Under the pieces are notes generated by a model. It was not told the origin of the DNA, did no database searches, and saw only the letters and a program-made list of their open reading frames with translations. This document shows, piece by piece, positions 11,884 through 34,292 of a stretch of DNA of 64,000 nucleotides. Origin of the DNA: Escherichia coli (GTDB lineage Bacteria; Pseudomonadota; Gammaproteobacteria; Enterobacterales; Enterobacteriaceae). Within the stretch, counting starts at the first letter, position 1. Each line of letters opens with the position of its first letter. The position numbers and the translations under genes are program-made. The stretch lies in assembly GCF_030384885.1 (NCBI RefSeq), contig NZ_CP128613.1. The stretch is one strand, 5' to 3'.

Positions 11884-12161
11884 ATCATTCAACAAAATCA
11901 ATCACTTACAAAGCGTTTTTGATTTTGTCATGCATAAATCCCTGCATTAAAATTCCTTTCGCTCGCTCGATTTTTCTTACTACTGATGCTGTTTTTTACC
12001 ATTTTGCTGCGCGTCGGGCATCCACTTTTATGCTCTCGAGTTCACACTCTTAACAACAACTTAGCCATTCCCCCGTTTCTAATGACAAAACAGTTGAACT
12101 TCAATTGTTCCAAACGGATCCTGTGAAGATATATCAAAGGAAATGGATTGTTGGAGGATGG

Positions 12162-13007
12162 ATGAAAAGAAGTGAAATCAGGAAAGCACTGGAAGCATGG
12201 TTTGATGTAGAACGCTATGAGGCGATAGAGAAACTCACCTTACAGCAGTTTTATGTTGAGGTTGAGCGGCGCATCTTGGCTTACAGAATGTTGTTGAGCC
12301 GGAAAACCATACCTACCTTTAACCGATTAATGCTGGATGATTACCGCAACAAGATCCTCAGCGGTGAAATCTTTTTCAGTGGTGATACTGCCACCATTGG
12401 ACATGAGCTTGCCAGAACCTATGCGGTAAACCCTACGACACGAAGCCATGCGCAATTTTATGCGAAAACCCTGTCATTAACCGAAGCCACGCCTGAACTC
12501 TCTGGGTTAAGCCAGTCTGAATTTCTGTCCGAGTATCTGAAAGAGACATCCCTTAATAATCTTTCACGCATTACTGTCGATATTCATCTGGAAGAAGCAT
12601 CAACCGAAGAGATCATTGAACATCTGAAAGTGCTGCTCCCCCAATGGAAGAGACAGCTCAAGATGAAGTCTCCAGCTCCAAGAGAGTATCGTTTTGGTAA
12701 AAGCACATTCAGAAAAATCATTGAATATCGTCTTATCCCGATGATGGACCTGATCTTCTGGGGAGAAGATAATGGCATTAAAATCCCGCTTTCACTGATT
12801 TCTTCGTTGCTTCACGAGGACAGTGACAACGATCGTGATGAAGGAATGCTCAAGGCTACAGATTACCCGTTAGCAATGGCTTTTCTGACTGACGCGAGCT
12901 ATCTGAAATCGCTTGAAGATTACATGATGGAAAACAACCACTTGAGAGACTCCCCGGTTGAAAAGCATGTAGAAGACGACAGGAATAAGAAAAAAGAAGC
13001 CAAGTAA
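12162..13007 (+). CDS. Hypothetical protein (281 aa), the first island gene after serU.
   Basis: Long ORF with GGAGGA 5-6 nt upstream of ATG 12162. No family recognised. Confidence 0.45.
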   Translation: MKRSEIRKALEAWFDVERYEAIEKLTLQQFYVEVERRILAYRMLLSRKTIPTFNRLMLDDYRNKILSGEIFFSGDTATIGHELARTYAVNPTTRSHAQFYAKTLSLTEATPELSGLSQSEFLSEYLKETSLNNLSRITVDIHLEEASTEEIIEHLKVLLPQWKRQLKMKSPAPREYRFGKSTFRKIIEYRLIPMMDLIFWGEDNGIKIPLSLISSLLHEDSDNDRDEGMLKATDYPLAMAFLTDASYLKSLEDYMMENNHLRDSPVEKHVEDDRNKKKEAK

Positions 13008-13213
13008 AAAGGGTTACGTTCGCTCCGTGCGAACGTGATCGCATCCAGTGTTAACCGTTATCTTTCCATTCGCTTCCCTTCGACATTTTCAAAAAAAACT
13101 TCTTTGAACGTCCCTAAATTGTCATAAGCAAAATCGCTATCATTGTTCACGTCGAAACAACATAGAGAAAACAAAATCTCATAGAGATTACTTACAATAA
13201 TAGAGGACAGACA

Positions 13214-13432
13214 ATGAAAGAAAATATTGAAACCAGCGTAAAACGATTTATCCGCGTTCCTGATGTTTTAAATCGGGTGGGATTCAGTCGCACGACCTTA
13301 TATGAGCGTATTAAGGAAGGAAACTTTCCAGACAGAGTAAAAATAGGTCCGAGGTGTGTCGCTTTTGTTGAAAGTGAGATTGATGAATGGATTGAAGCAA
13401 CTATTCGGAACTCACGCCAGAACGCTGCATAA
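13214..13432 (+). CDS. alpA: AlpA-family transcriptional regulator / excisionase-like HTH protein.
   Basis: RFIRVPDVLNRVGFSRTTLYERIKEGNFPDRVKIGPRCVAFVESEIDEWI is the typical AlpA/phage-Xis MerR-like HTH signature. Confidence 0.8.
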   Translation: MKENIETSVKRFIRVPDVLNRVGFSRTTLYERIKEGNFPDRVKIGPRCVAFVESEIDEWIEATIRNSRQNAA

Positions 13433-13501
13433 AAACAGAAACAAGATCTCGTGTCGAACAGGTAACTGTTAGCACAGGGCATCTTTTTACCCTTAACAAT
13501 A

Positions 13502-13804
13502 ATGGAGAAGATTATGAAGATTGAACTTATTACGACAAAACAGTTTATTGAACAAGCCGAATGTTATTTCAGGAACTATATGGACGGATTGCGGAGGAAT
13601 GCACCAGATGATTTTTATTATTTTCTCAACAATAAATACAATATGAATGACATTATGGAAAGTATCATTAAAAAAACACGGTATCATTTTTATGATGACA
13701 CCGAAGAAGGCAAAAGGAATCGGATTTATGGAGAAGTAAGCCACAGTAAGGTAAAGCAACACCTTCATCAGCTTTGGATTGTCTATAAGTGTGTATATCG
13801 CTAA
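13502..13804 (+). CDS. Hypothetical small protein (100 aa).
   Basis: ORF only. AT-rich, same strand as alpA. Confidence 0.35.
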   Translation: MEKIMKIELITTKQFIEQAECYFRNYMDGLRRNAPDDFYYFLNNKYNMNDIMESIIKKTRYHFYDDTEEGKRNRIYGEVSHSKVKQHLHQLWIVYKCVYR

Positions 13805-13847
13805 TACTACAGCATTTTATTTTAATATTAACCAAAAGGAAAAGCCA

Positions 13848-14216: not shown

Positions 14217-14459
14217 ATGATTGATGAATTTCATGTGATGTATATGTATAAAAAAATCCAAGCAGAAGCCGCAACCACTGACATCAAAACACTTGAACAG
14301 CTTTTGAAAAAGTTCAGGAGCGTGGTTAACGAACGTCGTGAAGAATACTATCAGGAGATTGGTGAGAAAAAAGCGCGTAAGTTGAAAATGAAAAGAGCAC
14401 AAAGATTACTTGAGAAAATGGTATGTGACCGGGTTTCGCCAGAAGATCTCATTGACTGA
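14217..14459 (+). CDS. Hypothetical small charged/coiled-coil protein (80 aa).
   Basis: ORF with AAGGAG 7 nt upstream of ATG 14217. Confidence 0.4.
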   Translation: MIDEFHVMYMYKKIQAEAATTDIKTLEQLLKKFRSVVNERREEYYQEIGEKKARKLKMKRAQRLLEKMVCDRVSPEDLID

Positions 14460-16893: not shown

Positions 16894-17298
16894 TTAGATG
16901 GCAAAGTCTTCCAGTGTCTTACCAGCTTCGATAGCAGCAGCGATTGCTTTAGGAGTACGGCCCTGACCCGTCCAAGTCTGCTCATTACCGTTTTCATCTG
17001 TATATTTGTATTTAGCAGGACGAGGAGCACGAGTTGATTTGGTTTTAGGCTGGGATGAACCAACTGAAGCGAGTAGTTCTGTAGGATCGATACCGTCTTC
17101 TAATAATTTCTGGCGGAAGGCTTCAAGTTTAGCCTGACGTTCTTCTTGTTCTTTACGGGCTGAATTTTCTTCCTCACGGCGATCTTCAACGATTGTGGTG
17201 AGTTTTTCCAGCATCTCTTCCAGAGTTGCCAGATCTGTTTCACGAGCCTGTGCGCGAAGTGTACGAATATTGTTCAGTGCCTTAAGAGCTTCACTCAT
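16894..17298 (-). CDS. H-NS family nucleoid-associated protein (island-encoded H-NS paralogue).
   Basis: [20 protein letters not shown]... forms the N-terminal coiled coil. The C terminus (...[36 protein letters not shown]) contains the H-NS DNA-binding TWTGQGRTP motif. Confidence 0.9.
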
Positions 17299-17454: not shown

Positions 17455-17934
17455 TTACAGAGATATTTTCCTGCGCTTGTGGCTTGATGGTTCAAACTCT
17501 GACGAGATACGAGATAGTTGCTCAAGACTCTGTTCAATTGAACGCTGGAACTCCATAGCGGCTTCTGTACGCTGTTTTATGACCAAGGCAACTATTTCTT
17601 CATCAGTCTTTTCTGAAATAGCCTTACGGTATAACACGCGTTCGTTAAATAAATCGAGATTACCAGTTGATCTCGCTGATGTGTTAGCTTTTGAACTGCT
17701 GATAGGATTTAACTCGTCAATAAAGTATTCAATAAGAGATCCTCTCTTTTTTTCAAGTCTGCGAAGTTCGGTATGTGCAGACTTAAATTTTTGAGCCTTA
17801 ACCAATGGAATGTCATCGGAACGCAGTTTGCGATATTCATTTCTGTATTCTTCTATAGAAATATGATTTTTTAGTTCTTTGACTGTATTTACGTATTCGA
17901 TTAAATCACTGTTGTCTGTTTTTACTTTTCTCAT
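17455..17934 (-). CDS. Hypothetical charged, probably coiled-coil protein (159 aa).
   Basis: ORF only. The octamer repeat array lies 64 bp upstream of its start. Confidence 0.4.
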   Translation of the reverse strand: MRKVKTDNSDLIEYVNTVKELKNHISIEEYRNEYRKLRSDDIPLVKAQKFKSAHTELRRLEKKRGSLIEYFIDELNPISSSKANTSARSTGNLDLFNERVLYRKAISEKTDEEIVALVIKQRTEAAMEFQRSIEQSLEQLSRISSEFEPSSHKRRKISL

Positions 17935-18126: not shown

Positions 18127-18684
18127 TTAATTTTTGTTATTCACTGTTTTCTTTTTGTCCTTCAAGTAATAAGTTTTCATGAAAGTTAAACGATCACCAT
18201 TAAACATATAGTCTGGATTAATAAAATAATAGTTCTGTATCATGGTCTCAGCAATAAATTTCTTGTCAGCAAGTTCTTTCATCCCTTTGAAATATGTCGT
18301 TCTTGATATTTTTACAATCTCTTGATCAACAATATCGAATGACATTAATATCGTATCTGTATCTTTATTGTCTCTAATAGCAAGATACAGTATCTTAAAT
18401 ACTTTCTTACCTGATGAGGATAAACCCTCAATAGCTGATACGCCATCCACATAAAGCTTCACGAACTGTGTCTTGTCTACTTCCATTGACTGAAAGAAAC
18501 CACCATGCCCAACCTGTTCTCCTGTATTTTCATTTACTACGGCTAAGCGGTCTTTTCCTGTTGTGATACGTCTGATACCTGTTTTTGTATGTATATTTGT
18601 ATCATTAAGGAATGGGTTTTTTACATGGCGAGGTAGACCTCTTCTTGATTTCTTTACTTCCGTTTGTATCTTATTTTCTATCAT
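18127..18684 (-). CDS. RepL-like / winged-helix DNA-binding protein (possible replication or maintenance protein).
   Basis: The pattern FVKLYVDGVSAIEGLSSSGKKVFKILYLAIR ... ISRTTYFKGMKELADKKFI ... YFINPDYMFNGD resembles the RepL-family layout I remember (F.K.Y...L..LS....KV...L, a wHTH, then INP....G). This is remembered similarity only. Confidence 0.4.
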   Translation of the reverse strand: MIENKIQTEVKKSRRGLPRHVKNPFLNDTNIHTKTGIRRITTGKDRLAVVNENTGEQVGHGGFFQSMEVDKTQFVKLYVDGVSAIEGLSSSGKKVFKILYLAIRDNKDTDTILMSFDIVDQEIVKISRTTYFKGMKELADKKFIAETMIQNYYFINPDYMFNGDRLTFMKTYYLKDKKKTVNNKN

Positions 18685-19095
18685 GGTACTTACTCCTTTA
18701 TTTTTTTAGTTATACATTTAAGTAAATACTATATTTTGCGTGCAAGTCAATACTTAAAGTTTATATTTTTTAAAATAACTAACACTTGATGTTTTTACGT
18801 ATAAAACTTGTAGTGCTACAGAATATATACAAATAACACTTTATTATTTTTATTTGAGAATAGTTATCAACTTAAGTACCGGGATTCGGGACTTTAACTC
18901 CCGAGAGTGCGTACTTTGTTTTAAGCTATAGCTGGCTTGAGAGCAGTTTTCTTCTTCATTATTCAAATAGCGAAGCTTTGGATGACATTTTAAAGAATAT
19001 AATATTGGAAATAGTTCTTCTTTTTAGTTGATTGGTGCCTTATCAAAATGGCACCAGTGGTGTTATCTGTGTTATTTTTCCTACTATGTTATTAC

Positions 19096-19143
19096 AGCGA
19101 AGTGATTGTTGTATACAATCACGAACCGCTGCTACTATCGGGA
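19096..19143. repeat. Copy A of a ~46-48-bp repeat carrying an inverted repeat (GTGATTGT...ACAATCAC).
   Basis: AGCGAAGTGATTGTTGTATACAATCACGAACCGCTGCTACTATCGGGA. It matches copy B at most positions. Confidence 0.7.
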
Positions 19144-19233
19144 CTGCTTGATTAATTTTACTTTAACTTTATATGCGTCTACGACGCGATCTTTTTTGGA
19201 TAAATCCAATATTAACAGGGGCAAGCCCTGTTC

Positions 19234-19279
19234 AGCAGAGTGATTGTTCGCAACAATCACGAAGTGCTGCTATCAAGGA
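19234..19279. repeat. Copy B of the same repeat (GTGATTGTT-CGC-AACAATCAC hairpin or palindrome).
   Basis: AGCAGAGTGATTGTTCGCAACAATCACGAAGTGCTGCTATCAAGGA. Confidence 0.7.
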
Positions 19280-19602: not shown

Positions 19603-19872
19603 ATGAACAATACCAAAATGATCACTCTCTTCCATCCACATGACAAAACACCATTTATAATCTGTATTGTAAACAAAGTAGAAGATACAGACCACGGATT
19701 GAAATTAACCCTTGAAAACGGCAACAATATTTGTGTCAATAATTATAGTCATTATCTGTTATCAGAGTCTGTAAGTCGTTGCGATAAACACAGGTTAAAA
19801 AATATTTATATTCGCTTGGTTTCAGAACTCACGCAGATGAGTGAAAAAACTATAAATTCGCAAATGTTATAA
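19603..19872 (+). CDS. Hypothetical protein (89 aa).
   Basis: ORF with AAAGGAAAA upstream. No family recognised. Confidence 0.35.
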   Translation: MNNTKMITLFHPHDKTPFIICIVNKVEDTDHGLKLTLENGNNICVNNYSHYLLSESVSRCDKHRLKNIYIRLVSELTQMSEKTINSQML

Positions 19873-19950
19873 AATATCTATAAAGACATAATAAATATTT
19901 TTGATATTATGATTAGTTGCATGGTATTAAATAAAAACAGGAAAAATATC

Positions 19951-24132: not shown

Positions 24133-24163
24133 TTTGTTCCATAATTAGATGAAAGGTGAGACG

Positions 24164-26314: not shown

Positions 26315-26809
26315 TTAACTATTATTGCATTTTTTTCTGTTGAATAGTTGATTATATCCAAGTTCCATTTCTTCAATAAAATCTTCATTAAATGTTGGAA
26401 ATCCACACGCCAGTGGTTCTTTCCCTCGAATTTTGAATAAGTTATAAAGATAACTACTTTCTTTATATGCGACATGAATGGCAGGATATGGCCTATTTTT
26501 TATAATCTTATTGTTTAGTTCCTTATCATTGATAATGTTATATTGATCCCCCGTTATATCAACTACAATATTATCTATCTCAAGCCAGTAATGGGTTATT
26601 TGACTATTTTTTCCGGTAGTTGCGCTAACTCCTTTTAGCTCACATTCAGGCCATAGGGTCAGAAAATGGTAAGAAAGAAGCATTGAGGTAAGCTTACAAC
26701 TCATAACAGGAAAACAGTCTATAACAAGACTGGTGTTCTTTTTATCACAACTTTCAATTAATCTACGAAGCTTAACTGCTTCTTCTTTTATTTCGATAAT
26801 GGTTGGCAA
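26315..26809 (-). CDS. Putative transglutaminase-like / papain-fold cysteine peptidase-like protein (164 aa).
   Basis: The spacing of C (VMSCKLTSMLL), H (ITHYWLEI) and D (VVDITGDQ) matches the Cys-His-Asp arrangement of transglutaminase-like cores as I remember them. Inference only. Confidence 0.4.
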   Translation of the reverse strand: MPTIIEIKEEAVKLRRLIESCDKKNTSLVIDCFPVMSCKLTSMLLSYHFLTLWPECELKGVSATTGKNSQITHYWLEIDNIVVDITGDQYNIINDKELNNKIIKNRPYPAIHVAYKESSYLYNLFKIRGKEPLACGFPTFNEDFIEEMELGYNQLFNRKKCNNS

Positions 26810-26887: not shown

Positions 26888-28369
26888 TTAGTGTTTCTTA
26901 TGGCTCGGTGGACTCAGTTTTGGCGCGCTTCCTTGCCTCATGTGTTCTGGTGGCATTGAAGGTGTGAGATTTATGCTTCTATTAACTTCCGGCTGTTCCT
27001 GATTAGGACGGCTTGGTAAACGTTTGATTTCATCAGGTGTTAATTTATAGTCACCATTGTTAAATTTGGTACGTTTTTCAAACTCCGAGCGTGGAACATT
27101 GACACCCAGCACTTCATCATAGACATAGTTCTCTGCGATACGCTTATCATGGTCAGCATCAATGGTATCGGGTTTCCTTCTGGCCCATACAAATCTCTCT
27201 TTGAAGAAGCCCACCACAAGCAGTGTGAAACGCTTAAACAAACCATTTTGTCGTGGCTTAGTCTGTTTCCTACTTCTCATCGGAGCACGGTTTATCGCTC
27301 TGGTGTTTCGAGAAGAAGGGGTTTCCAGTTTAGTGGATGCAGTTGGTTCAGGAACAATCAGAACGGGAGATTTCTTCCCTGAAATACTTACTTTACTGAC
27401 CTTATTGGGATCACGGTAAGATTTTGCTGCTGGTCTTCTGCTTGTGGCGTGTGTCTTCATAACAGGCTGCTGTTCTACTGTTGCCGGGTAGTCAGGGATA
27501 ACGATTTCTTCGGGTTCAGCAAGATGTGTAATCGTAAAGCTTCTGACATCAACCACGATCTCCAGTGGTAGCTCACTGAATGTGGTGTAGACCTTTTTGG
27601 CCTCTTCAATTTGCTGATCGCGTTGAGCTTGTTCAGTAGCTCGCTGTTCCTGAGACTCGGTGTCATTCCATTTAGCACGATGAACACGCTGCATTGCCGG
27701 GCGGTTAGTTTCTGTTGCTTTGGCAAGCCAGAATGCTTTCTCTTCAGCGCTGAATGCTTCTTCTGCCTGAGCAAGGGCATCAGCACATTGCGTCCTGAGA
27801 GAACGGTGATCGATACGTTCTTCACTGCCTGCGGCTTCAAGGTAGCTGTTTGACATCGTGGCCCACGACTCACGCCATTGGATCATTATCTTCTTATCAT
27901 TCCAGCTTCTTTCTTTTTTACCGAAGCCTTCGGGACCAATGGTTTTCAGGGTTAACATGACGTGAGCATGGGGATTCTTACCATCTAAATCGTGGAATGC
28001 GATATCAGCTATCATTCCTTTCTCAACAAAGTTCTTCTGGCAGTATTCGGCAACCAATTTTTTCTTGTCATCATTACTGAGTTCTACGGGAATAGCGACA
28101 TCAAAATAACGGGCTGTTTGACCATTGTTCTGGCGTTCCACTCTTTCAACTTCATTCCATAGTGCTGAGGAGCTTTCAACAATATGAGCAGGTGCGGAAA
28201 CGGGCGCTAATATAATATGACCATGAAGATCTCTTCTGCGTCTGAAATCAAATGTTTCGCCAATGCGATTATCTATAATACGTGTACGGGCATGGTAGGC
28301 AGCTTTCGCAACGGAAGTCATGCCTTCGCTTCGTTTCACAATTTTAAAATCCAGATGAAAAATCGCCAT
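26888..28369 (-). CDS. mobA: MobA/MobL-family (MOBQ-type) relaxase.
   Basis: MAIFHLDFKIVKRSEGMTSVAKAAYHAR carries the catalytic Tyr region, cf. RSF1010 MobA MAIYHLTAK. ARYFDVAIPVELS and FHDLDGKNPHAHVMLT give the 3-His motif. Confidence 0.85.
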   Translation of the reverse strand: MAIFHLDFKIVKRSEGMTSVAKAAYHARTRIIDNRIGETFDFRRRRDLHGHIILAPVSAPAHIVESSSALWNEVERVERQNNGQTARYFDVAIPVELSNDDKKKLVAEYCQKNFVEKGMIADIAFHDLDGKNPHAHVMLTLKTIGPEGFGKKERSWNDKKIMIQWRESWATMSNSYLEAAGSEERIDHRSLRTQCADALAQAEEAFSAEEKAFWLAKATETNRPAMQRVHRAKWNDTESQEQRATEQAQRDQQIEEAKKVYTTFSELPLEIVVDVRSFTITHLAEPEEIVIPDYPATVEQQPVMKTHATSRRPAAKSYRDPNKVSKVSISGKKSPVLIVPEPTASTKLETPSSRNTRAINRAPMRSRKQTKPRQNGLFKRFTLLVVGFFKERFVWARRKPDTIDADHDKRIAENYVYDEVLGVNVPRSEFEKRTKFNNGDYKLTPDEIKRLPSRPNQEQPEVNRSINLTPSMPPEHMRQGSAPKLSPPSHKKH

Positions 28370-29012
28370 TAAAAATATAACCTCAAATAAAAATGCTGCT
28401 GTTAGTTTTTCGTAAGAAAAACTTTGGGGTTGACGTTGACCTTGGTTTTGCTTTTAGCCTGCGGCAGCAACCGTCGGTAGACCCCACACACTGCGTAGCA
28501 GTGTATAGGTGGGCATTGTCTTTAAGAAAATAAGCCAATGTAAAATGCCCCTCTTAATAATCAATACGAAATATATGTATGGTTGTAAAATAATACGCCG
28601 GGTTAAGCGGCGCAAACTGGATTAAAGGTGTAGGTTTCACGTCTGCAGGACAAAAAGAGTAAAGAAAAGGCCCGTAAGGGCAAAAGAAGTATTAATTATT
28701 CCCGCCGTAAGGCGGGATAGCGTTAATTGAAGAAAAAAGCTAATAAAACACGGAGTGTTATGTGTTGCACAATTCACAGGTTGAGGTGGAGAAATAGAGT
28801 TAAAGTTGACAGGTGAAAATAAAAGCACGAATGCGCAAAAATAAGTAACGCGTAGAGTGCGGGGTATTTTAAGTTAGTAATTACTATCACATGTGTTGCA
28901 CTATTTTATTTATGGACGTTCCAGAACTATTTTCTTTGACAAAACGGTGTAAATTTGACGTTATTCATCTTTGTGATAATTAAATACGTATAAACAACAA
29001 GAGGTGATAACT
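28370..29012. other. Intergenic region between divergent mobA and a small accessory gene; probable oriT-containing region.
   Basis: The position is analogous to RSF1010-type oriT, between divergent mob genes. The inverted repeat ACACTGC-GTA-GCAGTGT (28488-28504) is followed by ATAGGTGGGCATTG. There are a tandem GTTGACGTTGAC (28428-28439), an 11-bp direct repeat ATGTGTTGCAC (28759 and 28890), and hairpins at 28701-28716. Confidence 0.35.
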
Positions 29013-29317
29013 ATGGATGATAATATAAAAAAACCAAGAACAGAAAAAACATTAAAGCAAAAGGTTGCTTTTGCTCAGCTTGAACTTAATCGTCTTAAGT
29101 CTCTGGAAAAATCAGAACGAAAAAAGTTGAAACAAGGCTAAAGATTATACTTGGTGCGGAAGTGGCTAAGGCTATGCAGTGTGATATCGAACAGGTGGAT
29201 AAAGAACTCGTTATGGGGATTTTGCTTTCAGCATCTGACCTGAATGATATTGAAAAAATAACGTATATAAAAGCAGGCAGAAAGTTTCTTGCTCAAATGG
29301 ATGGAAGACAAAAATAA
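29013..29317 (+). CDS. Small basic coiled-coil protein (putative relaxosome accessory protein) split over the 0 and -1 frames at an A_AAA_AAG heptamer.
   Basis: ORF1 runs 29013-29141 (42 codons) and ends ...SERKKLKQG*. The -1 frame continues from 29126 as VETRLKIILGAEVAKAM... to the stop at 29315-29317. The heptamer A AAA AAG is at 29120-29126. Confidence 0.45.
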
Positions 29318-29574
29318 AAATCTTTAAATTTATTATGATTCAGGTATTGATATCTAATTATTATCTGTTATCTATATAAAAGAACAGAACGCAGGATCAT
29401 CCTTTATTAATATTTTTTCCTTTTCAATCATGCGTTCTGTTCGACCAGTAATCTGTTAATTTTTATCTTTATGTAGTGAACGTTATTATTACTTTTTCAT
29501 CAGATGTGAGAAATATCCCATGAGGAAGTAATAATGACAGTAGTGATAACAAATGTTGTTTTTAAATCTCCCGG

Positions 29575-29712: not shown

Positions 29713-30270
29713 ATGGTTTTATTAAAGAACAAAAGAAAAAGCAAGAAAGGTTTCTCACTACTCGAACTATTACTTGTTTTGGGCATCATTGCTGCATTAG
29801 TGGTAGCGGCTTTTATCGTTTATCCCAAGGTTCAGGCTTCACAAAGAGCGCAGGCAGAATCCAATAACATTGCCACCATACAGGCAGGTGTTAAAGCATT
29901 ATACACGTCGGCTTCAAGTTTTACTGGCCTGACAAATACTGTGGCTGTTCAGGCAAAAATCTTCCCTGACAATATGTTAAGTGGAACAGGCAATGCAGCT
30001 AAACCCATCAATGCCTTTAAAGGTAATGTGACGCTGGCTGCGGCAGCAACTGGCCCGTCATCAGCGGCTGGCTCTTCTTTCACTATTACATACGATAATG
30101 TGCCAGCAGCGGAATGTGTGAAAATAACCACTGCGGCGGCAGGCAACTTTTATACCGCTAAAGTCGGTTCAAAAGTTGTGAAGGCTTCGGATGGAACACT
30201 TGATGTGGCGGCTACGGCAGCAGCCTGTAATAACGCCACAAGTAATACATTAGTTTTCACGTCTATTTAA
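29713..30270 (+). CDS. pilS: Type IVb prepilin, PilS-like (R64 thin-pilus / SPI-7-type major pilin).
   Basis: Long basic leader, then KKG|FSLLELLLVLGIIAALVVAAF (Gly-1, Glu+5). The C-terminal Cys pair is ECVK...AACN. Confidence 0.8.
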   Translation: MVLLKNKRKSKKGFSLLELLLVLGIIAALVVAAFIVYPKVQASQRAQAESNNIATIQAGVKALYTSASSFTGLTNTVAVQAKIFPDNMLSGTGNAAKPINAFKGNVTLAAAATGPSSAAGSSFTITYDNVPAAECVKITTAAAGNFYTAKVGSKVVKASDGTLDVAATAAACNNATSNTLVFTSI

Positions 30271-30322: not shown

Positions 30323-31759
30323 ATGATAAAGAAAAAAGGATTTACCTTACTGGAAGTCAGTATTGTTTTAGGTATTGGAACGCTTATCGTTTTTATGAAG
30401 TTTCAGGATATGAGAAACGATCAGGAAGCAGTATTGGCTGATAATGTCGGAACACAGATTAAACAGCTTGGTGAAGCAGTTAACCGCTATATCAGTATTC
30501 GCTATGACAAGATTTCCACACTGTCATCATCTAATAATCAAAGCAGCGATCCGGGGCCAAGAACCTGTTCGGCTGCTGGTTGCGAAATCACTTACCAGAC
30601 GTTAATTAATGAAGGTCTGTTGCCTGTAGGCTATACAGGAACTAACGCGCAAAAAGCATCCTACAAGATTGTGTTAAAACGTTCAGGAACAGCGCCGGAT
30701 TACGTCATTAATGGCCTTATAACAACCGCCAGCCCGTGGGAAGAAGGTGGTCGTATTCGTTATGACCTGTTAGGTAAAGCGGTTCAGGCGGCTGGTGTTG
30801 ATGGTGGGATGAGCAGAAACACCAAGATAGCTTCCGGCTATGGTGGTCAGTGGAGTGAGAACTCTAATAGCTACAGCAATATCACGGGTGGTGGATTGCT
30901 GGCTTACCGCGTGGGGTATAACTCTTCAATGTATTCTGTTTATCTGCGTCGTGATGGAACGTTGCCAATGACGGGTGATCTGAATCTTGGTGGGAAGAGC
31001 ATCAAAAACATCAAAGATATTACTGCATCAGGGACAACAACAACCGGGGCACTTAAGACAACGGGTAATGCGTCTGTTGCATCAGATCTGACTGTGGGTG
31101 GAACCTCGACCCTTAATGGTCCTGTAAATATCAACAACAACCTCAAGGTAAAATCCGATACCTATCTGAACACGCTATCAACAACAGGTCTGGCGAAGTT
31201 TGGTAGCCGTATTGCGACGAACGGACTTAATCCAAACGATTTGCCTGCTGGCTGGGCTGGCGGTGTTCGCACCTATGATTTGTATGCGTCGGGGACTGTT
31301 GGTGTTGGAACCGGTAAAACAGTTAAAGCTTACATGAACAATGCGGGTAATATTTATGCGTCAGGTAATCTTACCGCCGGGACGATAAAATCCAACGGAA
31401 CAATTGAATCAACAGGCAGAATCAAAGCAGGTGAATATCTCCACCTGAATGGTCAGGCAACGTTGAATGCGAAATGTACGCCTAATGGTCTGGTGGGGCG
31501 AGATAGTGTGGGGAAAATATTATCATGTGTCAGTGGAAAGTGGTCTGATCTTACACCCGCAGCAGCGTCAGGTATCTATGTTCGTTATTATAATAGCATC
31601 CAGTGGTCATGTCCTGTGCCTAACCGAGCAACCGGAGGCTGTTCATGTTCGACAGGTCTTAAAAGTATCATCATCAATACAGATTCAACTGAAACGTGTT
31701 CAGGAGTTAAAAACACGCACTGTAGAACATCGACAAAATACTTTTATGCTTGTGTTTAA
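30323..31759 (+). CDS. pilV: PilV-like type IVb minor pilin / tip adhesin (shufflon-type protein, but with a fixed C terminus here).
   Basis: MIKKKG|[18 protein letters not shown] is a prepilin N terminus. It is 478 aa with a Cys-rich C-terminal region and lies immediately after pilS, as in R64-type pil operons. Confidence 0.7.
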
Positions 31760-31937: not shown

Positions 31938-31966
31938 TTGTTTCTGAGAATTATCTTGGATTTTGT

Positions 31967-32797
31967 CTAAATTATATTATTCATATCTATTGAATATCCT
32001 GCCTCTTTTAATTCTCTTGCTAAACGCATTTTCCACCCTTCATTAGAGTCTATTTTTTCATACGTAATACCAAGAGCATCAGTTGGAATTTCGATATCTC
32101 CCTTTATGAGAACCATTGTTTTTTCTCTACCTAACAATGCGGTAAAATATCCAAGTTCGAGAATGACATTCTGACGGGCTCGAAGGCTTTTATTTTGCTC
32201 ATTGTTAATCGGGTATCCATAATCATCGGGAGTCATCAAGATTACTGCAAAACCCGCTCTTTTTGCAAACTCCTGAAACTTTTCAATTATGGTCATTCCT
32301 TTGTTTATTTGCTCTTGTAAAATGACGGGTTCAACGCCCAGTTTTTCTAGAAATCTCGCAACTGAATGTTTTGTGCCTTCATCATGACCATGAACTAAAA
32401 AAACTGAATTACTTTCAGGTAATTCGGTTTTTAATTCTGATTCATCAAATTTTTCGGCAGTGAATACACCTTCAGTTCCAATGCTAGATCTCCATTTACC
32501 TCTTAATTTATTATTATTGACTAAGCTACAAATTACCGTAACTTTCCCTAACATAACCATCGGGTTTTTATTTCCGGGAGTTAGTTCAATAAACAGGTTT
32601 TCGCTTATTTTTCCTGAAATACTGTATTCATATGCTCCAAGTGCAAGTTCATGTATCTTCGCTGAACCGCTTACATTATTACCGTCTACATTTAGAGTAA
32701 AACTAATCCCACCTTGGTTGGTTCCGGAGATATCACCAGTCCAATAGCCTGAATATACATCATTTAGCATATAACTCCCCTCGCGATAATATTCCAT
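31967..32797 (-). CDS. TIR-like nucleotide-binding/NADase-type protein of the CAP12/PycTIR kind, with an unrecognised ~130-aa N-terminal domain.
   Basis: The C-terminal half (VFLVHGHDEGTKHSVARFLEKLGVEPVILQEQINKGMTIIEKFQEFAKRAGFAVILMTPDD...RARQNVILELGYFTALLGREKTMVLIKGDIEIPTDALGITY) matches the remembered consensus of the TIR-like effector domain seen in CBASS Cap12 and Pycsar PycTIR. Confidence 0.65.
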   Translation of the reverse strand: MEYYREGSYMLNDVYSGYWTGDISGTNQGGISFTLNVDGNNVSGSAKIHELALGAYEYSISGKISENLFIELTPGNKNPMVMLGKVTVICSLVNNNKLRGKWRSSIGTEGVFTAEKFDESELKTELPESNSVFLVHGHDEGTKHSVARFLEKLGVEPVILQEQINKGMTIIEKFQEFAKRAGFAVILMTPDDYGYPINNEQNKSLRARQNVILELGYFTALLGREKTMVLIKGDIEIPTDALGITYEKIDSNEGWKMRLARELKEAGYSIDMNNII

Positions 32798-32896
32798 GTG
32801 AATGTTTTATTATTGCAACATACGTCGGATCGTAGCGTAATTATCAATTTAGTATACATTCGAAAAAACGTTTAGCCTTCAACCTCCATTATTTCA

Positions 32897-34114
32897 CTAT
32901 TTACAGTAATCAGTCCACTCATCCATCAGTGCCACCCGCTTAGGCCATAACGTCCCACGTTGATACGCAGCCTCTGCCTTATCTGCCAACTGGTGAGCTA
33001 ACGCATGTTCAATTACTTCACGCGGGTAGTTGGTCGTTTCACCAGCCCAATCACGGAATGTCGATCTAAAACCATGCTGCGTTAAATCTGTGTATCCCAT
33101 TCGTTTTAGGACTGCCAGTAAAGCCGTATCCGAGAGTTGTCCCTTCCGAGTGGCAGGGAATACAAAATTGATACCCTTAAAGCGTGGTAAAGCCTTTAAC
33201 AGGACAACAGCAGCATCAGACAGAGGAACTCGATGCTCCTTCGCTGCTTTCATTCGGCTTGCAGGTATGGTCCACGTTTTACCTTCAAGATCGATCTCTG
33301 ACCACTCGGCACCACGAATTTCTCCTGAGCGTGCCGCGGTCAGTATGGCAAACTCAAGCGCACGAGGCGAAACGCCGCTTCGTTCACGTAGTTCTTTCAT
33401 AAAGGAGCCGATCTGGTTATAGGGAAGAGCGGCATGGTGCTTGGTGATCTGAACTTTACTTGGCTGAGGCAACAGAGGTTTCAACATACCTTTCCATGCG
33501 GCAGGATTATCACCTTCAAAGTATTCTTTGGCCTTAGCGTAATCAATCACCGTTTCAATACGTCCACGTAGACGACTGGCGGTTTCATTCTTGGTTAACC
33601 AGATAGGTTCCAGTATTGCCAGAAGATCCACTTTGGTGATTTCACTAACGGCCTTTTTGCCAATGAAAGGGTAGGCATAGGTCTCCAGTGTGGAACGCCA
33701 TTGAGCGAGATGTTTTTTGTTCTTCATCTCACTGTCTTTGACTTCCAGCACTTCTTCACAACACTCGGCAAAGGTCTTTTTCTTCCGGGCCAGTATTTCC
33801 TGCCGGGATTTTTGCTCGTGTTTTTCTTGAAGGGGATTAATACCATTACGGATTTGTTTACGTAGCTCACGCGCTTTGTCACGCGCTTCGGCTAAGGAGA
33901 CTTCCGGGTAAGGGCCAAGCCCCATATTCAAACGTCTTGGAACTGTTCTACCGAGATTGTTGATTCGGGTTCCCATAGCTACACAAAGAACCCATGCACG
34001 GGACTGATTCCGGATGCGAAGGTATAAACCATCCACACCACCTACGGCATACATACCTTCGGATTTTAATCGTGATACGACGAGTCCTGAGAGTTCCTTG
34101 GCCTTCTTTGGCAT
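32897..34114 (-). CDS. int: P4-type tyrosine integrase (DUF4102 arm-binding N terminus plus catalytic domain).
   Basis: GLYLRIRNQSRAWVL...LGPYPEVSLAEARDKARELRKQIRNGINP in the N-terminal part. The catalytic residues are in ...LTAARSGEIRGAEW..., HGFRSTFRDW and ALAHQ...AAYQRG. Confidence 0.9.
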   Translation of the reverse strand: MPKKAKELSGLVVSRLKSEGMYAVGGVDGLYLRIRNQSRAWVLCVAMGTRINNLGRTVPRRLNMGLGPYPEVSLAEARDKARELRKQIRNGINPLQEKHEQKSRQEILARKKKTFAECCEEVLEVKDSEMKNKKHLAQWRSTLETYAYPFIGKKAVSEITKVDLLAILEPIWLTKNETASRLRGRIETVIDYAKAKEYFEGDNPAAWKGMLKPLLPQPSKVQITKHHAALPYNQIGSFMKELRERSGVSPRALEFAILTAARSGEIRGAEWSEIDLEGKTWTIPASRMKAAKEHRVPLSDAAVVLLKALPRFKGINFVFPATRKGQLSDTALLAVLKRMGYTDLTQHGFRSTFRDWAGETTNYPREVIEHALAHQLADKAEAAYQRGTLWPKRVALMDEWTDYCK

Positions 34115-34278
34115 AGCAAAATCCTGTCATACAACCCGCCATACATACGGTACTGCATAAAATAGCTGATTGTTTGCACAGTAGCAATACACTACCGAAC
34201 AAAAAAATAATGACAATATTTTGTTTTTAAAGGAAAAATAGCACTTGGGTGGGCATTATCGAACACTAAAAATTTAGA

Positions 34279-34292
34279 CCCTCTCTCCGCCA
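34279..34292 (+). repeat. attR-type direct repeat of the serU 3' end.
   Basis: CCCTCTCTCCGCCA is identical to 11870-11883. It lies 165 bp upstream of the integrase start. Confidence 0.65.

What the first reader, a model, noticed from the sequence alone, without database searches (positions are those of the whole stretch)
11884..34292. 22.4-kb serU island: an apparently mobilizable element loaded with immune-type genes
The island is bounded by tRNA-Ser(CGA) and a 14-bp direct repeat of its 3' end. The mobility and maintenance functions are a P4-type integrase, AlpA, a MOBQ relaxase with divergent accessory gene and probable oriT, a RepL-like protein with nearby repeats, and an H-NS paralogue. 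At least three NTPase- or NADase-type defence candidates sit alongside them: a NACHT protein, Thoeris ThsAB and a stand-alone TIR-like protein. There are also several unknown membrane, lipoprotein and peptidase-like genes. No conjugation (T4SS) genes are present, only pilS-pilV. That fits an integrative mobilizable element that hijacks a helper plasmid such as an IncI-type plasmid. The unknown genes wedged between known defence genes are prime guilt-by-association candidates for undescribed systems.
Basis: partly seen in the sequence, partly recalled or inferred. Interest (0 to 1): 0.65.

Follow-up and report, generated by a model that had tools for sequence, protein, structure and literature searches.

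The report
Known serU island, new defence cargo
This 22.4-kb insertion is a copy of the already described E. coli "serU island", a ROD21-like mobilizable genomic island sitting in a catalogued defence-island hotspot; only its particular mix of anti-phage genes is new, so it is a new member of a known kind.

Summary
tRNA-Ser(CGA) ends at 11883, and its last 14 nt recur at 34279-34292. E. coli 2013C-4282 matches both flanks at 99.99-100% and has an empty serU. Its two alignments overlap by exactly those 14 nt, so the window carries one precise 22,395-bp insertion.

However, the element is not new. It is the "serU island" reported in 2005 in UPEC CFT073 and 536. That island is a relative of the ROD21-like (EARL) islands with a different integrase. 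The mtfA-zinT/tRNA-Ser(CGA) locus is hotspot #17 in the 2023 E. coli defence-island catalogue.

The element has a conserved backbone and four variable slots. Here the slots hold a bNACHT01-like NACHT protein, type I Thoeris, a CAP12-type TIR candidate (PDC-S35) and two unknown genes. No complete E. coli genome searched has this combination.

- The TraD-like accessory gene is frameshifted.
- An IncI helper is barely supported.
- The membrane and lipoprotein genes belong to the backbone, not the cargo.
- A truncated H-NS antagonist gene (H-NST) was missed.

Interest is low to moderate.

The parts
11794..11883 (+). serU, tRNA-Ser(CGA), the integration target. Its 3' end is restored by island DNA (attL).
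   Evidence: ARAGORN, Rfam tRNA at 57 bits, and alignment to K-12 serU.
11870..11883 (.). attL core, CCCTCTCTCCGCCA.
   Evidence: The overlap between the two alignments to the empty-site strain 2013C-4282 is exactly these 14 nt.
12162..13007 (+). DUF6387 gene. This is the conserved roughly 843-bp unknown gene that accompanies the RDF in EARL islands.
   Evidence: Pfam PF19924 at 181 bits. EARL description. Present in CFT073 and L001 at 97% aa identity.
13214..13432 (+). AlpA-family recombination directionality factor (excisionase).
   Evidence: Pfam Phage_AlpA at 67.5 bits. The ROD21 homologue SEN1998 binds both att regions (PMC8844411).
13514..14144 (+). Two small backbone genes of unknown function, at 13514-13804 and 13848-14144.
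   Evidence: No Pfam or PADLOC hit. Conserved at 82-98% aa in the other serU islands and in the Salmonella serW island.
14217..14459 (+). H-NST, a truncated H-NS of 80 aa with the N-terminal oligomerisation domain only. It acts as an H-NS antagonist.
   Evidence: Pfam Histone_HNS_N at 43.8 bits. Role described in PMC7074111.
14844..16682 (+). Cargo slot A (14450-16893). It holds a single-gene NACHT NTPase that is bNACHT01-like, with a NACHT module followed by a divergent short C-terminal region.
   Evidence: Pfam NACHT at 40 bits. It is 58% identical over its full length to a 609-aa Klebsiella/Gammaproteobacteria protein whose Walker-A Lys is K115, as reported for bNACHT01. It is 98% identical to a Salmonella protein in the same slot of a serW island. 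The segment is absent from 5,426 E. coli genomes by megablast.
16894..17298 (-). Hfp/H-NSB, a full-length H-NS paralogue.
   Evidence: Pfam Histone_HNS_N plus Histone_HNS. 134/134 aa identical to the CFT073 protein. Literature.
17455..17934 (-). DUF4756 backbone gene.
   Evidence: Pfam at 218 bits. Present in all sampled islands that cover this region.
18127..18684 (-). RepL-like replication or maintenance protein.
   Evidence: Pfam RepL at 24.2 bits against a cutoff of 20.3. RefSeq gives homologues the same name.
19095..19272 (.). Two 40-nt direct repeats, 80% identical. Each contains the palindrome GTGATTGT-N5-ACAATCAC. They lie in the 0.9-kb AT-rich spacer upstream of repL and may be an operator or origin.
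   Evidence: the repeat finder family D1 and inverted repeat I1. Function is inferred only.
19603..20355 (+). Two small unknown backbone genes, of 89 aa and 148 aa.
   Evidence: No hits in Pfam, PADLOC or NCBIfam. Conserved in L001, L008, L105 and L106.
20470..21432 (+). Unknown 320-aa protein that is semi-conserved. It is present in CFT073, L001 (frameshifted there) and L105, and is replaced in L008.
21641..23077 (+). Cargo slot B (21344-23752). ThsA, a SIR2 NADase fused to a SLOG/STALD domain, from type I Thoeris.
   Evidence: Pfam STALD at 242 bits and SIR2_2 at 104 bits. PADLOC ThsA1 at 672 bits. The TTNYD and MHGD motifs are visible in the translation.
23094..23705 (+). ThsB, the TIR-domain sensor and signal synthase of Thoeris.
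   Evidence: Pfam ThsB_TIR at 46 bits. PADLOC ThsB1 at 285 bits.
23755..25600 (.). Backbone envelope genes: a lipoprotein at 23755-24132 (-), the DUF4755 membrane protein at 24164-24652 (-), and a lipoprotein at 25070-25600 (+).
   Evidence: In L105 RefSeq names the homologues SEN1984-family and SEN1982-family lipoproteins, after ROD21 genes. They are 91-98% conserved in most sampled serU-type islands, though a few copies are divergent or frameshifted.
25696..26268 (-). Cargo slot C (25601-27055). Unknown 190-aa single-pass membrane protein with an Ig-like beta-sandwich.
26315..26809 (-). Cargo slot C. Unknown 164-aa protein with a transglutaminase/papain-like fold and invariant Cys38, His73, Asp84 and Asp88.
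26888..28369 (-). MOBQ (MobA/MobL) relaxase.
   Evidence: Pfam at 185 bits. Tyr25 and FHDLDGKNPHAH are in the translation. The relaxase domain is 50% identical to those of 3.4-4.1-kb MOBQ plasmids.
28482..28517 (-). Probable oriT. A hairpin (ACACTGC/GCAGTGT) lies next to the conserved AATGCCCACC box, 113 nt upstream of mobQ.
   Evidence: The same motif sits upstream of mobQ in small MOBQ plasmids with otherwise unrelated spacers. Stem changes there are compensatory: ACACTCG/CGAGTGT, and in L094 GCATTGT/ACAATGC. Nicking has not been shown.
29014..29318 (+). TraD-like (Ti-plasmid type) relaxosome accessory gene, a pseudogene here. A 1-nt deletion in an A-run at about 29131 puts a stop after 42 codons.
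   Evidence: Alignment with the intact 101-aa genes of L001 and CFT073. Weak Pfam TraD hit on the downstream frame.
29713..30270 (+). PilS-type type IVb major pilin.
   Evidence: Pfam PilS at 103 bits plus N_methyl.
30323..31759 (+). PilV-type pilus tip adhesin. The N-terminal 407 aa are conserved. The C-terminal 71 aa (from nt 31544) form a divergent cassette.
   Evidence: Pfam Shufflon_N at 54 bits. The N-terminal part is 95-98% identical to other serU islands and the C-terminal part only 28%.
31967..32797 (-). Cargo slot D (31544-32901). A 276-aa protein with an unknown N-terminal domain followed by a CAP12/Pycsar-type TIR domain. It matches the PADLOC candidate PDC-S35.
   Evidence: Pfam PF10137 at 128 bits. 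PADLOC PDC-S35 at 227 bits. Weak matches to solved Cap12 and PycTIR structures. No cyclase gene is present in the island.
32897..34114 (-). P4-type tyrosine integrase of the serU class, at the tRNA-distal end.
   Evidence: Pfam Arm-DNA-bind_3, Phage_int_M and Phage_integrase. 98% aa identity to the CFT073 integrase. Found in 420 of 5,426 E. coli genomes, always on the chromosome.
34279..34292 (.). attR core, the displaced original 3' end of serU.

Best explanation
The region is a copy of the E. coli serU island. This is an integrative mobilizable element (IME) related to the ROD21-like (EARL) islands of Enterobacterales.

Shown here:
- A P4-type tyrosine integrase has recombined the element into the last 14 nt of tRNA-Ser(CGA), leaving attL and attR cores.
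- A near-isogenic strain has the intact empty site.
- The element has a conserved backbone: DUF6387-AlpA, H-NST, Hfp, DUF4756, RepL, envelope lipoproteins with DUF4755, MobQ-oriT-TraD, PilS-PilV and the integrase.
- The backbone is interrupted by four slots whose content differs between islands.

Inferred:
- AlpA and the integrase excise the element as a circle.
- The MOBQ relaxase nicks the hairpin oriT at 28482-28517 and pilots one strand through the T4SS of a co-resident conjugative plasmid or ICE, because the island has no T4SS or coupling protein.
- RepL may keep the circle alive for a time.
- H-NST and Hfp tune H-NS silencing of the AT-rich island.
- The integrase then inserts the element into serU of the recipient.

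Cargo in this copy:
- Slot A holds a bNACHT01-like NLR-type NTPase, a single-gene phage sensor whose way of stopping infection is still unknown.
- Slot B holds type I Thoeris. By the established mechanism, ThsB makes a cyclic ADP-ribose isomer on infection, this binds the ThsA SLOG domain, the SIR2 domain depletes NAD+, and infection aborts.
- Slot D holds a stand-alone CAP12-type TIR protein, a presumed NADase of unvalidated function.
- Slot C holds two unknown genes, a transglutaminase/papain-like Cys-His-Asp protein and a single-pass membrane protein.

In this copy the TraD-like accessory gene is frameshifted. Mobilisation may therefore be impaired.
For: Boundaries and the empty site.

Identity with the published island:
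- The island is colinear with the CFT073 serU island at 87-96% nt over seven backbone blocks.
- Hfp is 100% identical and the integrase 98% identical at the protein level.
- The literature describes a 22.5-kb serU island that encodes H-NST and Hfp, is related to ROD21, and has a different integrase and site (PMC7074111).

EARL gene set: a P4-like integrase, an RDF with an 843-bp unknown gene, a MobA/MobL relaxase with TraD, a type IV pilin with a pilus protein, and full-length and truncated H-NS (PMC6035254 and PMC10763509). All are found here.

Experimental support from relatives: excision has been shown for ROD21, IE3 and ICEKp258.2, and low-frequency helper-dependent transfer for ROD21.

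oriT: the hairpin and box are conserved with compensatory stem changes in small MOBQ plasmids that share the mobQ<>TraD layout.

Variable slots hold defence-type genes in other islands:
- TcpC, a TIR protein and a macro-domain protein (CFT073).
- Drt5, DUF4238 and DUF6602.
- DUF3800 and a TIR protein.
- AbiGi, a TIR protein and AAA+HNH genes.
- A NACHT protein, a dsDNA nuclease and DUF262+HEPN.

Hotspot: mtfA-zinT/tRNA_Ser_CGA is hotspot #17, occupied in 116 of 816 genomes (PMC10121019 Table S1).

Cargo identities.

An integrase of 78-81% identity, together with PilV, MobQ and in most loci PilS or Hfp, occurs in Citrobacter, Klebsiella, Mangrovibacter and Cedecea. An Enterobacter locus instead has the alternative arrangement, with DUF6387-AlpA next to the integrase. 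The att cores match the 3' ends of serT or serW.
Against: No excision, transfer or phage-resistance experiment exists for this copy, and sequence analysis cannot supply one.

The TraD-like gene is frameshifted.

In ROD21, transfer was about 1e-8 and was unaffected by deleting the relaxase. Relaxase-driven mobilisation is therefore unproven even within this family.

No helper can be named. PilS is unlike IncI pilins at tblastn E<=1e-5.

PADLOC 2.0 has no hit for the NACHT protein. Its link to bNACHT01 rests on 58% identity to a protein that I identified as bNACHT01-like only from species, length and the K115 position. The accession was not verified.

PDC-S35 is a candidate system, not a validated one.

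RepL support is weak, at 24 bits.
Confidence: 0.85

Rival explanations
1. This is a decaying, effectively immobile island remnant. It integrated once through its integrase, can no longer be mobilised, and is now kept for its cargo and H-NS modulators as a domesticated defence or fitness island.
For: The TraD-like relaxosome gene is frameshifted. There is no T4SS or coupling protein. Other copies show decay: IS insertions in pilV, loss of pilS-pilV and integrase fragments, and an integrase with an internal stop. ROD21 transfer is extremely rare at 1e-8.
Against: The integrase, AlpA, the relaxase catalytic motifs and oriT are all intact here. A strain with only 2 mismatches in 31 kb of flank lacks the island, and the junction is exact. 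Gain or loss was therefore very recent and site-specific. The single-base frameshift lies in an A-run, so it could be a sequencing error or be reversible.
Confidence: 0.2
2. This is primarily a pathogenicity island. On this view its TIR proteins act on host Toll/IL-1 signalling, as claimed for TcpC of the CFT073 serU island and TlpA of ROD21, rather than against phages.
For: The serU island and ROD21 were first described as pathogenicity islands, and TcpC and TlpA as Tcp virulence factors.
Against: This copy lacks tcpC. Slot C holds other genes. One of its TIR proteins is a ThsB located next to a full ThsA, at 285 and 672 bits in PADLOC. The other is a CAP12/Pycsar-type TIR. The same slots in other islands hold Drt5, AbiGi, NACHT proteins and nucleases. 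The locus is catalogued as a defence hotspot.
Confidence: 0.08
3. This is a phage satellite of the P4-like or PICI-like kind. On this view the integrase and AlpA belong to a satellite that is packaged by a helper phage rather than conjugated.
For: A P4-type integrase plus AlpA at a tRNA site is typical of Gram-negative satellites. A homologue of the 164-aa protein lies near an Ogr/Delta gene in Gibbsiella.
Against: No ORF hit a primase/helicase, capsid-remodelling, terminase-small or cos/pac-related family. A complete MOBQ-oriT-TraD module and pilin genes point to conjugative transfer.
Confidence: 0.03

Closest known systems
The serU island of uropathogenic E. coli CFT073 and 536 (first reported 2005; encodes H-NST, Hfp/H-NSB and, in CFT073, TcpC)
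   Same: The insertion site and 14-bp core are the same. The integrase is 98% identical at the protein level and Hfp is identical. The backbone order is the same and aligns at 87-96% nt over seven blocks. The size is about 22.4 kb.
   Different: The cargo differs in all four slots. This copy has a NACHT protein where CFT073 has DUF6404, and ThsAB where CFT073 has a ComEA-family gene. It has the 190-aa and 164-aa unknowns where CFT073 has TcpC, a TIR protein and a macro-domain protein. It has a CAP12-type TIR where CFT073 has a 606-aa unknown. It also has a different PilV C-terminal cassette and a frameshifted TraD.
[quoted passage not shown]
   Same: The conserved gene set matches. It comprises the RDF with an 843-bp DUF6387 gene, a MobA/MobL relaxase with TraD, a type IV pilin with PilV, full-length and truncated H-NS, and lipoproteins that RefSeq names after SEN1982 and SEN1984. 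Both are low-GC, 19-41 kb and excisable.
   Different: EARL islands insert in Asn-tRNA genes, have 24-37-bp repeats and carry their integrase next to the tRNA. This island inserts in serU with a 14-bp core. It uses a different integrase, located at the tRNA-distal end.
E. coli defence-island hotspot #17 (mtfA-zinT, tRNA_Ser_CGA) of Hochhauser, Millman and Sorek 2023
   Same: The chromosomal locus is the same. IMEs are listed there as common carriers of defence systems.
   Different: The catalogue treats the locus statistically. The held copy of its S2 table is cut before hotspot 17, so I could not see which systems were recorded there.
SGI1/MGI-type integrative mobilizable elements mobilised by IncA/C or SXT-type helpers
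   Same: The lifestyle is the same: an integrase with an RDF, the element's own mobilisation functions, no T4SS, and reliance on a helper. SGI1 also replaces helper mating-apparatus parts with its own. This last point is from my own knowledge and parallels the island's own pilin and adhesin.
   Different: The integrase, site and relaxase families are unrelated. No helper is known for serU islands, and pilus remodelling here is only a hypothesis.
bNACHT01 (Klebsiella pneumoniae MGH 35; Kibby et al., bacterial NLR-related anti-phage proteins, clade 14)
   Same: It is a single gene of about 610 aa. The NACHT module has its Walker-A lysine at the equivalent position, and the short C-terminal region is divergent. 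It is 58% identical over its full length to the probable bNACHT01 cluster member.
   Different: The sequence is only 58% identical, and the last roughly 130 residues are much more diverged. No phage test exists. PADLOC 2.0 gives no hit.
Type I Thoeris (ThsA SIR2-SLOG plus ThsB TIR)
   Same: Both genes are adjacent and co-oriented, and both give very strong profile matches. The ThsA protein is identical to the one in the 48-genome E. coli island variant.
   Different: Nothing notable. This is an ordinary member.

Membership tests
E. coli serU island | Inserted at the 3' end of serU (tRNA-Ser CGA), between mtfA and zinT. | tested here: met
E. coli serU island | About 22.5 kb, and encodes both truncated H-NST and full-length Hfp/H-NSB. 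| tested here: met
   The insertion is 22,395 bp. H-NST lies at 14217-14459 and Hfp at 16894-17298. Hfp is 134/134 identical to the CFT073 protein. Definition taken from PMC7074111.
E. coli serU island | serU-class integrase and a backbone colinear with the CFT073 island. | tested here: met
   The integrase is 98% identical at the protein level. Seven colinear blocks align at 87-96% nt.
EARL (ROD21-like) islands, strict sense | [quoted passage not shown] | tested here: not met
   The site is serU and the core is 14 bp. The criterion is given.
EARL (ROD21-like) islands, strict sense | ROD21-type P4-like integrase located directly downstream of the tRNA. | tested here: not met
   The integrase lies at the distal end, at 32897-34114 on the - strand. 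The review states that the serU island has a different integrase. A direct comparison with SEN1970 was not made.
EARL (ROD21-like) islands, strict sense | Conserved modules: RDF with an 843-bp gene, MobA/MobL with TraD, and type IV pilin with a pilus protein. | tested here: met
   TraD is present but frameshifted.
Integrative mobilizable element (IME) | Own integration and excision module, and att sites. | tested here: met
Integrative mobilizable element (IME) | Own relaxase and/or oriT, but no T4SS or coupling protein. | tested here: met
   MobA/MobL at 185 bits. oriT is supported comparatively. No ORF of the island hit a T4SS or T4CP family.
Integrative mobilizable element (IME) | Transfer in the presence of a helper conjugative element. 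| not testable with these tools
   The only data come from ROD21: about 1e-8, dependent on pSLT, and independent of the relaxase.
Type I Thoeris | ThsA with a SIR2 domain and a SLOG/STALD domain. | tested here: met
   Pfam SIR2_2 at 104 bits and STALD at 242 bits. PADLOC ThsA1 at 672 bits.
Type I Thoeris | An adjacent ThsB TIR protein. | tested here: met
   It starts 17 nt downstream on the same strand. PADLOC ThsB1 at 285 bits.
Type I Thoeris | Confers phage resistance through gcADPR signalling and NAD+ depletion. | not testable with these tools
   Established for the family (my own knowledge), but not assayed for this copy.
bNACHT01-like bacterial NLR (clade 14) | NACHT module with an intact Walker A, no fused enzymatic effector, and a short divergent C-terminal (SNaCT) region. 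| tested here: met
   Pfam finds only a NACHT domain, at residues 113-251. GQGKST is present. The core is 85-90% identical and the tail diverged relative to the K115-bearing Klebsiella protein. Features are described.
bNACHT01-like bacterial NLR (clade 14) | Sequence membership in the clade of WP_015632533.1. | tested here: inconclusive
   The comparison protein P0121 could not be tied to that accession. PADLOC 2.0 gave no hit. The DefenseFinder model was not available.
CBASS Cap12 / Pycsar PycTIR effectors | TIR domain of the CAP12/PycTIR type. | tested here: met
   PF10137 at 128 bits. Weak PDB matches to Cap12 and PycTIR.
CBASS Cap12 / Pycsar PycTIR effectors | A partner cyclase (CD-NTase or pyrimidine cyclase) in the same operon, and a nucleotide-sensing N-terminal domain. 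| tested here: not met
   No cyclase is present among the island ORFs. Residues 1-120 hit no family. NCBIfam Cap12 scores are 39 and 35 bits against a cutoff of 450. The gene is filed only as PADLOC candidate PDC-S35.
Phage satellites (P4-like / PICI) | Replication primase/helicase and genes that redirect helper-phage packaging. | tested here: not met
   None found in the Pfam, NCBIfam or PADLOC scans of the island ORFs.

The most novel reading that the evidence does not exclude
The PilS-PilV pair may not be a leftover. It may be the island's own device for choosing recipients. On this reading the element loads its pilin and tip adhesin onto a helper's type IVb mating pilus. Islands would then exchange the roughly 70-residue C-terminal PilV cassette at the conserved ...VSGKW junction. 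The cassette is 28% identical here, against 95-98% for the rest of the protein. That would be a population-level equivalent of the IncI shufflon. A mobilizable island would thereby control the host range of its helper's conjugation.
Probability: 0.12. Interest if true: 0.6.

Novelty: new member of a known kind. Interest (0 to 1): 0.25.

Why it matters
The value here is mainly organisational. An island long treated as a pathogenicity island (serU island, ROD21 family, TcpC/TlpA) is built as a fixed backbone with four exchange slots, and those slots mostly hold anti-phage genes. That architecture yields a short, well-defined list of candidate unknown cargo. In this copy it is the transglutaminase-like 164-aa protein and the 190-aa membrane protein in slot C. 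Other copies add DUF6602, DUF4238, DUF3800 and a 606-aa protein.

It also removes the backbone membrane and lipoprotein genes from the candidate list.

A near-isogenic strain with an empty site (2013C-4282) provides a ready natural control for fitness and phage-resistance comparisons.

The integrase clade targets the 3' ends of three different tRNA-Ser genes, which makes it a tidy system for studying how att specificity shifts.

None of this overturns current views.

Tried and rejected
1. Source organism. I first suspected a cryptic Escherichia species, because the flanks are only about 95% identical to K-12. The best GTDB representative, Escherichia sp. MOD1-EC7003, is 94-96% identical. I rejected this because E. 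coli 2013C-4282 matches the flanks at 99.99-100%. The locus is simply polymorphic within E. coli.

2. Second copy of the oriT box. GGTGGGCATT recurs 22 nt from attR, at 34248-34257. I tested whether it is a second nick site or an integrase arm site. It is conserved only in the closely related serU islands, and is absent at the equivalent place in the serT and serW relatives. I treat it as unexplained and probably coincidental.

3. Shufflon recombination site at the PilV junction. I searched using the R64 sfx consensus as I remembered it. There was no match near 31543, and the total count was no higher than in shuffled sequence.

4. PADLOC, NCBIfam and PDB sequence searches for the NACHT protein. 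All found nothing.

7. Rfam scan of the island. Only the two tRNAs were found.

8. Table S2 of the hotspot paper. The held copy is cut before hotspot 17, so the recorded systems could not be read.

9. Literature search for TcpC together with anti-phage and genomic island. No paper was found.

10. A 393-kb 'plasmid' record (CP088875.1) carries island-like pilS, pilV and mobQ. I did not pursue it. It may be a misassigned chromosomal piece.

Full report
**1. The observation**

ARAGORN and Rfam place tRNA-Ser(cga) at 11794-11883 on the + strand. Its last 14 nt, CCCTCTCTCCGCCA, recur exactly at 34279-34292. A chance second copy in 64 kb is expected about 2e-4 times.

The interval has 37.7% G+C against 49.7% in the left flank.

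In K-12, serU-mtfA-asnT aligns to window 11883..10722. The DNA just downstream of serU, including its last 14 nt, aligns to window 34753..34279.

The decisive control is E. coli 2013C-4282 (NZ_CP027579.1). It matches window 5279-11883 at 100% over 6,605 bp, and window 34279-59000 at 99.992% with 2 mismatches in 24,722 bp. The two alignments overlap by exactly the 14-bp core. That strain is a natural empty attB. The window differs from it by one precise 22,395-bp insertion with a 14-bp duplication.

It is, so the test is passed.

**2. Gene content**

- DUF6387 (12162-13007).
- AlpA (13214-13432).
- NACHT (14844-16682).
- Full-length H-NS (16894-17298).
- DUF4756.
- RepL-like, weak at 24 bits.
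- ThsA (SIR2 + STALD, PADLOC 672 bits) and ThsB (285 bits).
- Two lipoproteins and DUF4755.
- MobA/MobL relaxase (26888-28369).
- PilS and PilV.
- A CAP12/Pycsar-type TIR protein (31967-32797; PADLOC candidate PDC-S35, 227 bits).
- An integrase with the P4-type domain architecture (32897-34114).

No ORF hit any T4SS or coupling-protein family. The 'TraD' here is the small Ti-plasmid-type relaxosome protein, not a coupling protein.

The relaxase keeps Tyr25 and the HxDx5NPHxH motif.

**3. What it is**

The literature search led directly to a known element. The 'serU island' was first reported in 2005. It is a 22.5-kb island of UPEC CFT073 and 536 that encodes H-NST and Hfp/H-NSB. It is described as related to ROD21 but with a different integrase and integration site, and as probably derived from IE3 of EPEC E2348/69 (PMC7074111). 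tcpC of CFT073 lies in it (PMC8835471).

The ROD21-like (EARL) family has a defined conserved set (PMC6035254; PMC10763509):
- A P4-like integrase.
- An AlpA-like RDF accompanied by an 843-bp unknown gene.
- A MobA/MobL relaxase plus a TraD homologue.
- A type IV pilin plus a pilus protein.
- Often, full-length and truncated H-NS.

I fetched the CFT073 island. The window aligns to it in seven colinear backbone blocks at 87-96% nt. The Hfp proteins are identical and the integrases are 98% identical.

The serU-class integrase occurs in 420 of 5,426 complete E. coli genomes, always once and always on the chromosome. A 48-genome variant covers 83% of the window island at 94.9%.

The mtfA-zinT/tRNA_Ser_CGA locus is hotspot #17 in the E. 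coli defence-island catalogue. It was detected in 816 genomes and occupied in 116 (PMC10121019 Table S1). That paper already lists IMEs as common carriers of defence systems.

The island as such is therefore already known. It also fails two strict EARL criteria, the Asn-tRNA site and the ROD21-type integrase next to the tRNA. It is best filed as a serU island and a close relative of EARL.

**4. Architecture: backbone and slots**

I compared the window with CFT073, L001, L008, L009, L010, L105 and L106. The comparison gives the following backbone:
- DUF6387, AlpA, two small genes, H-NST, Hfp, DUF4756 and RepL.
- Two small genes (89 aa and 148 aa).
- A lipoprotein, DUF4755 and a second lipoprotein.
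- MobQ, oriT, TraD, PilS, PilV and the integrase.

There are four variable slots:

| Slot | Window coordinates | This copy | Other islands |
|---|---|---|---|
| A | 14450-16893 | NACHT | DUF6404; DUF6602; a different NACHT |
| B | 21344-23752 | ThsAB | ComEA-family gene; DUF4238 |
| C | 25601-27055 | 190-aa and 164-aa unknowns | TcpC/TIR/macro; Drt5; DUF3800; AbiGi |
| D | 31544-32901 | CAP12-type TIR | VOC; 606-aa unknown; other TIRs; dsDNA nuclease; AAA+HNH |

The slots are the lowest-GC parts of the island, at 31-36%.

This has a practical consequence. In L105 RefSeq names them SEN1982-family and SEN1984-family lipoproteins, after ROD21 genes. They are more likely to serve the element's own biology.

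Only 25696-26809 is unknown cargo confined to a variable slot here. 20470-21432 is an unknown gene of variable presence.

**5. The cargo**

*NACHT.* The closest relative is 98% identical and comes from Salmonella enterica (636 cluster members). It sits in the same position, after H-NST, in an island next to clpA. The att core of that island matches the 3' end of serW.

A 70% homologue in Serratia is a solitary gene.

The protein is 58% identical over its full length to a 609-aa Klebsiella/Gammaproteobacteria protein whose Walker-A lysine is K115. K115 is the residue mutated in bNACHT01 of K. pneumoniae. bNACHT01 is a single-gene system active against T4, T5 and T6, with a rapidly diversifying short C-terminal domain (bioRxiv 10.1101/2022.07.19.500537). 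As in that description, the core here is highly conserved and the last roughly 130 residues are not.

I could not verify the accession of the comparison protein, and PADLOC 2.0 gives no hit. I therefore rate family membership as probable, not proven.

The NACHT segment has no megablast match in any of the 5,426 complete E. coli genomes.

*Thoeris.* This is an ordinary type I pair. The ThsA protein is identical to the one in the 48-genome variant.

*TIR protein.* It has a Cap12/PycTIR-type TIR domain. It has no cyclase partner and no recognisable sensor domain, so it is not a CBASS or Pycsar effector. It is only a PADLOC candidate.

*Slot C, the 164-aa protein.* It belongs to a well-conserved family (mean column identity 62%) with invariant Cys38, His73, Asp84 and Asp88.

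A homologue lies directly downstream of a MobA/MobL relaxase in another island that carries Lamassu-like genes.

*Slot C, the 190-aa protein.* It is a single-pass membrane protein with an Ig-like sandwich (pLDDT 84) and no informative structural neighbour. Its homologues are solitary, next to TA modules, integrases or transposases in distant Proteobacteria.

**6. Mobility functions**

*oriT.* The spacer upstream of mobQ holds a hairpin, ACACTGC-N3-GCAGTGT, next to the box AATGCCCACC (28482-28517).

The same arrangement lies upstream of mobQ in 3.4-4.1-kb MOBQ plasmids. Their relaxase domains are 50% identical to this one, and they share the mobQ<>(hyp-hyp-)TraD layout. Their spacers are otherwise unrelated, and the stem changes are compensatory: ACACTCG/CGAGTGT, and in L094 GCATTGT/ACAATGC. 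This is good comparative evidence for an oriT. Nicking itself is inferred.

*TraD.* The TraD-like gene at 29014-29318 has lost one A from an A-run, and its frame stops after 42 codons. Either mobilisation efficiency is compromised or this is a homopolymer sequencing error.

*Helper.* PilS matched only 66 of 72,556 plasmid records. These are mostly 30-55-kb records from Klebsiella, Citrobacter and Enterobacter; 65 are typed non-mobilizable and none conjugative. The one record I inspected carries type III R-M and H-NS-family genes.

PilV matches 2,320 conjugative plasmids, annotated as shufflon-type PilV. Nearly all of these matches cover only residues 338-451, at about 40-51% identity in most listed matches.

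In ROD21, transfer was about 1e-8, needed the F-like pSLT plasmid, and was unaffected by deleting the relaxase (PMC3976249).

*Excision.* The ROD21 AlpA homologue SEN1998 binds both att regions (PMC8844411). Excision has been shown for ROD21, IE3 and ICEKp258.2. The near-isogenic empty site shows that gain or precise loss happened very recently in this lineage.

**7. Wider distribution**

One scan of GTDB species representatives with the integrase found three groups:
- A 98% relative in Escherichia sp. MOD1-EC7003.
- 76-81% relatives in Citrobacter, Klebsiella, Mangrovibacter and Cedecea, next to PilV, MobQ and in most loci PilS or Hfp, and in Enterobacter next to DUF6387-AlpA in the alternative arrangement.
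- 50-69% relatives far beyond the Enterobacterales.

Aligning the DNA upstream of these integrases shows that each carries the displaced 3' end of a tRNA-Ser gene:
- serU, CCCTCTCTCCGCCA.
- serT, CTGCGCTTCCGCCA.
- serW, C(C/A)CCTCACCGCCA.

I assigned the serT and serW sequences from my own knowledge of the E. coli tRNA sequences.

**8. Verdict**

The island is, however, a textbook-type member of a described family at a catalogued hotspot. What is new is the particular mosaic of bNACHT01-like NACHT, Thoeris I, PDC-S35 TIR and two unknown genes, together with a divergent PilV C-terminal cassette. I score it as a new member of a known kind, with low to moderate interest.

The most novel reading still open is that PilS and PilV let the island re-arm a helper's mating pilus, with an adhesin cassette that islands exchange among themselves. 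I give that about 12%.

Noticed in passing
window 31544-31759 (PilV codons 408-478): The PilV N-terminal 407 aa are 95-98% identical to those of other serU islands. The C-terminal 71 aa are only 28% identical, although the cysteines are conserved. The break falls right after ...VSGKW, which is also roughly where similarity to the shufflon-type PilV of conjugative plasmids fades. No rci recombinase or sfx-like repeat was found.
   Followed up: partly
window 29014-29318: The TraD-like relaxosome accessory gene has lost one A from an A-run at about 29131. It is split into a 42-codon ORF and an out-of-frame remainder. It is intact in CFT073, L001 and L008.
   Followed up: yes
window 34248-34257 and 28508-28517: The 10-mer GGTGGGCATT of the oriT box has its only other exact copy in the window 22 nt inside attR. 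With its flanks, the match is 12 of 13 nt. It is conserved in close serU islands but not in the serT or serW relatives. It remains unexplained.
   Followed up: partly
window ~5279-5283: Relative to the near-isogenic E. coli 2013C-4282, the window lacks 7.2 kb (L104 5534-12688). That stretch covers the N-terminal part of a giant Ig-like (YeeJ-type) adhesin gene, a LysR regulator, a cysteine hydrolase and most of hypE. The junction shares 5 nt. The window ORF at 1208-5251 is the truncated adhesin.
   Followed up: partly
window ~10263-10565, next to tRNA-Asn at 10727-10802: In 2013C-4282 the equivalent stretch is annotated as two fragments of a P4-type integrase, an N-terminal and an Arm-binding piece. 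It is probably the remnant of an asnT island, which is the site used by HPI and the EARL islands.
   Followed up: no
window 34293-34975: yodB (cytochrome b561), which lies between serU and zinT in K-12, is absent. About 1 kb of K-12 sequence is replaced by 222 bp. The same is true of the empty-site strain 2013C-4282 and of several island-bearing strains. The O103 strain ML775 has both the island and yodB, so the deletion is independent of the island.
   Followed up: partly
window 40252-46523: A low-GC stretch lies between hchA and the porin gene. It contains unknown ORFs of 465, 138 and 125 aa with no Pfam hit. It is absent from Escherichia sp. MOD1-EC7003 and present in 2013C-4282, where it is flanked by transposase fragments. 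It looks like another small insertion.
   Followed up: no
L005 (Salmonella enterica GCA_006803475.1) and L012 (Enterobacter adelaidei): Here the integrase (81% aa identity) lies directly upstream of DUF6387-AlpA, in the same orientation. That is the opposite end and strand compared with the window. In L005 the same H-NST-NACHT arm follows, with NACHT 98% identical. The left arm of the island thus travels between elements that have different integrase placement and a different tRNA-Ser target.
   Followed up: partly
window 19095-19134 and 19233-19272: Two 40-nt repeats, 80% identical, each hold the palindrome GTGATTGT-N5-ACAATCAC. They lie in the 0.9-kb AT-rich spacer upstream of the RepL-like gene and may be an operator or origin.
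   Followed up: no
L091 (K. pneumoniae AR_0148 'plasmid', 42.8 kb) and similar 30-55-kb records: The only plasmid-database relatives of the island pilin, at 45-50% identity, are records typed non-mobilizable. The one inspected (L091) carries two pilin genes, an H-NS-family gene and a type III R-M system. They might be excised or misassembled island-like elements.
   Followed up: no
L106 (E. coli strain 1500, NZ_CP040269.1): This is an IE3-like island at a tRNA-Asn gene. It carries both an Asn-type integrase and a serU-type integrase with an internal stop, with DUF262 and HEPN genes between them. A different NACHT protein (28% identical) sits in slot A.
   Followed up: partly
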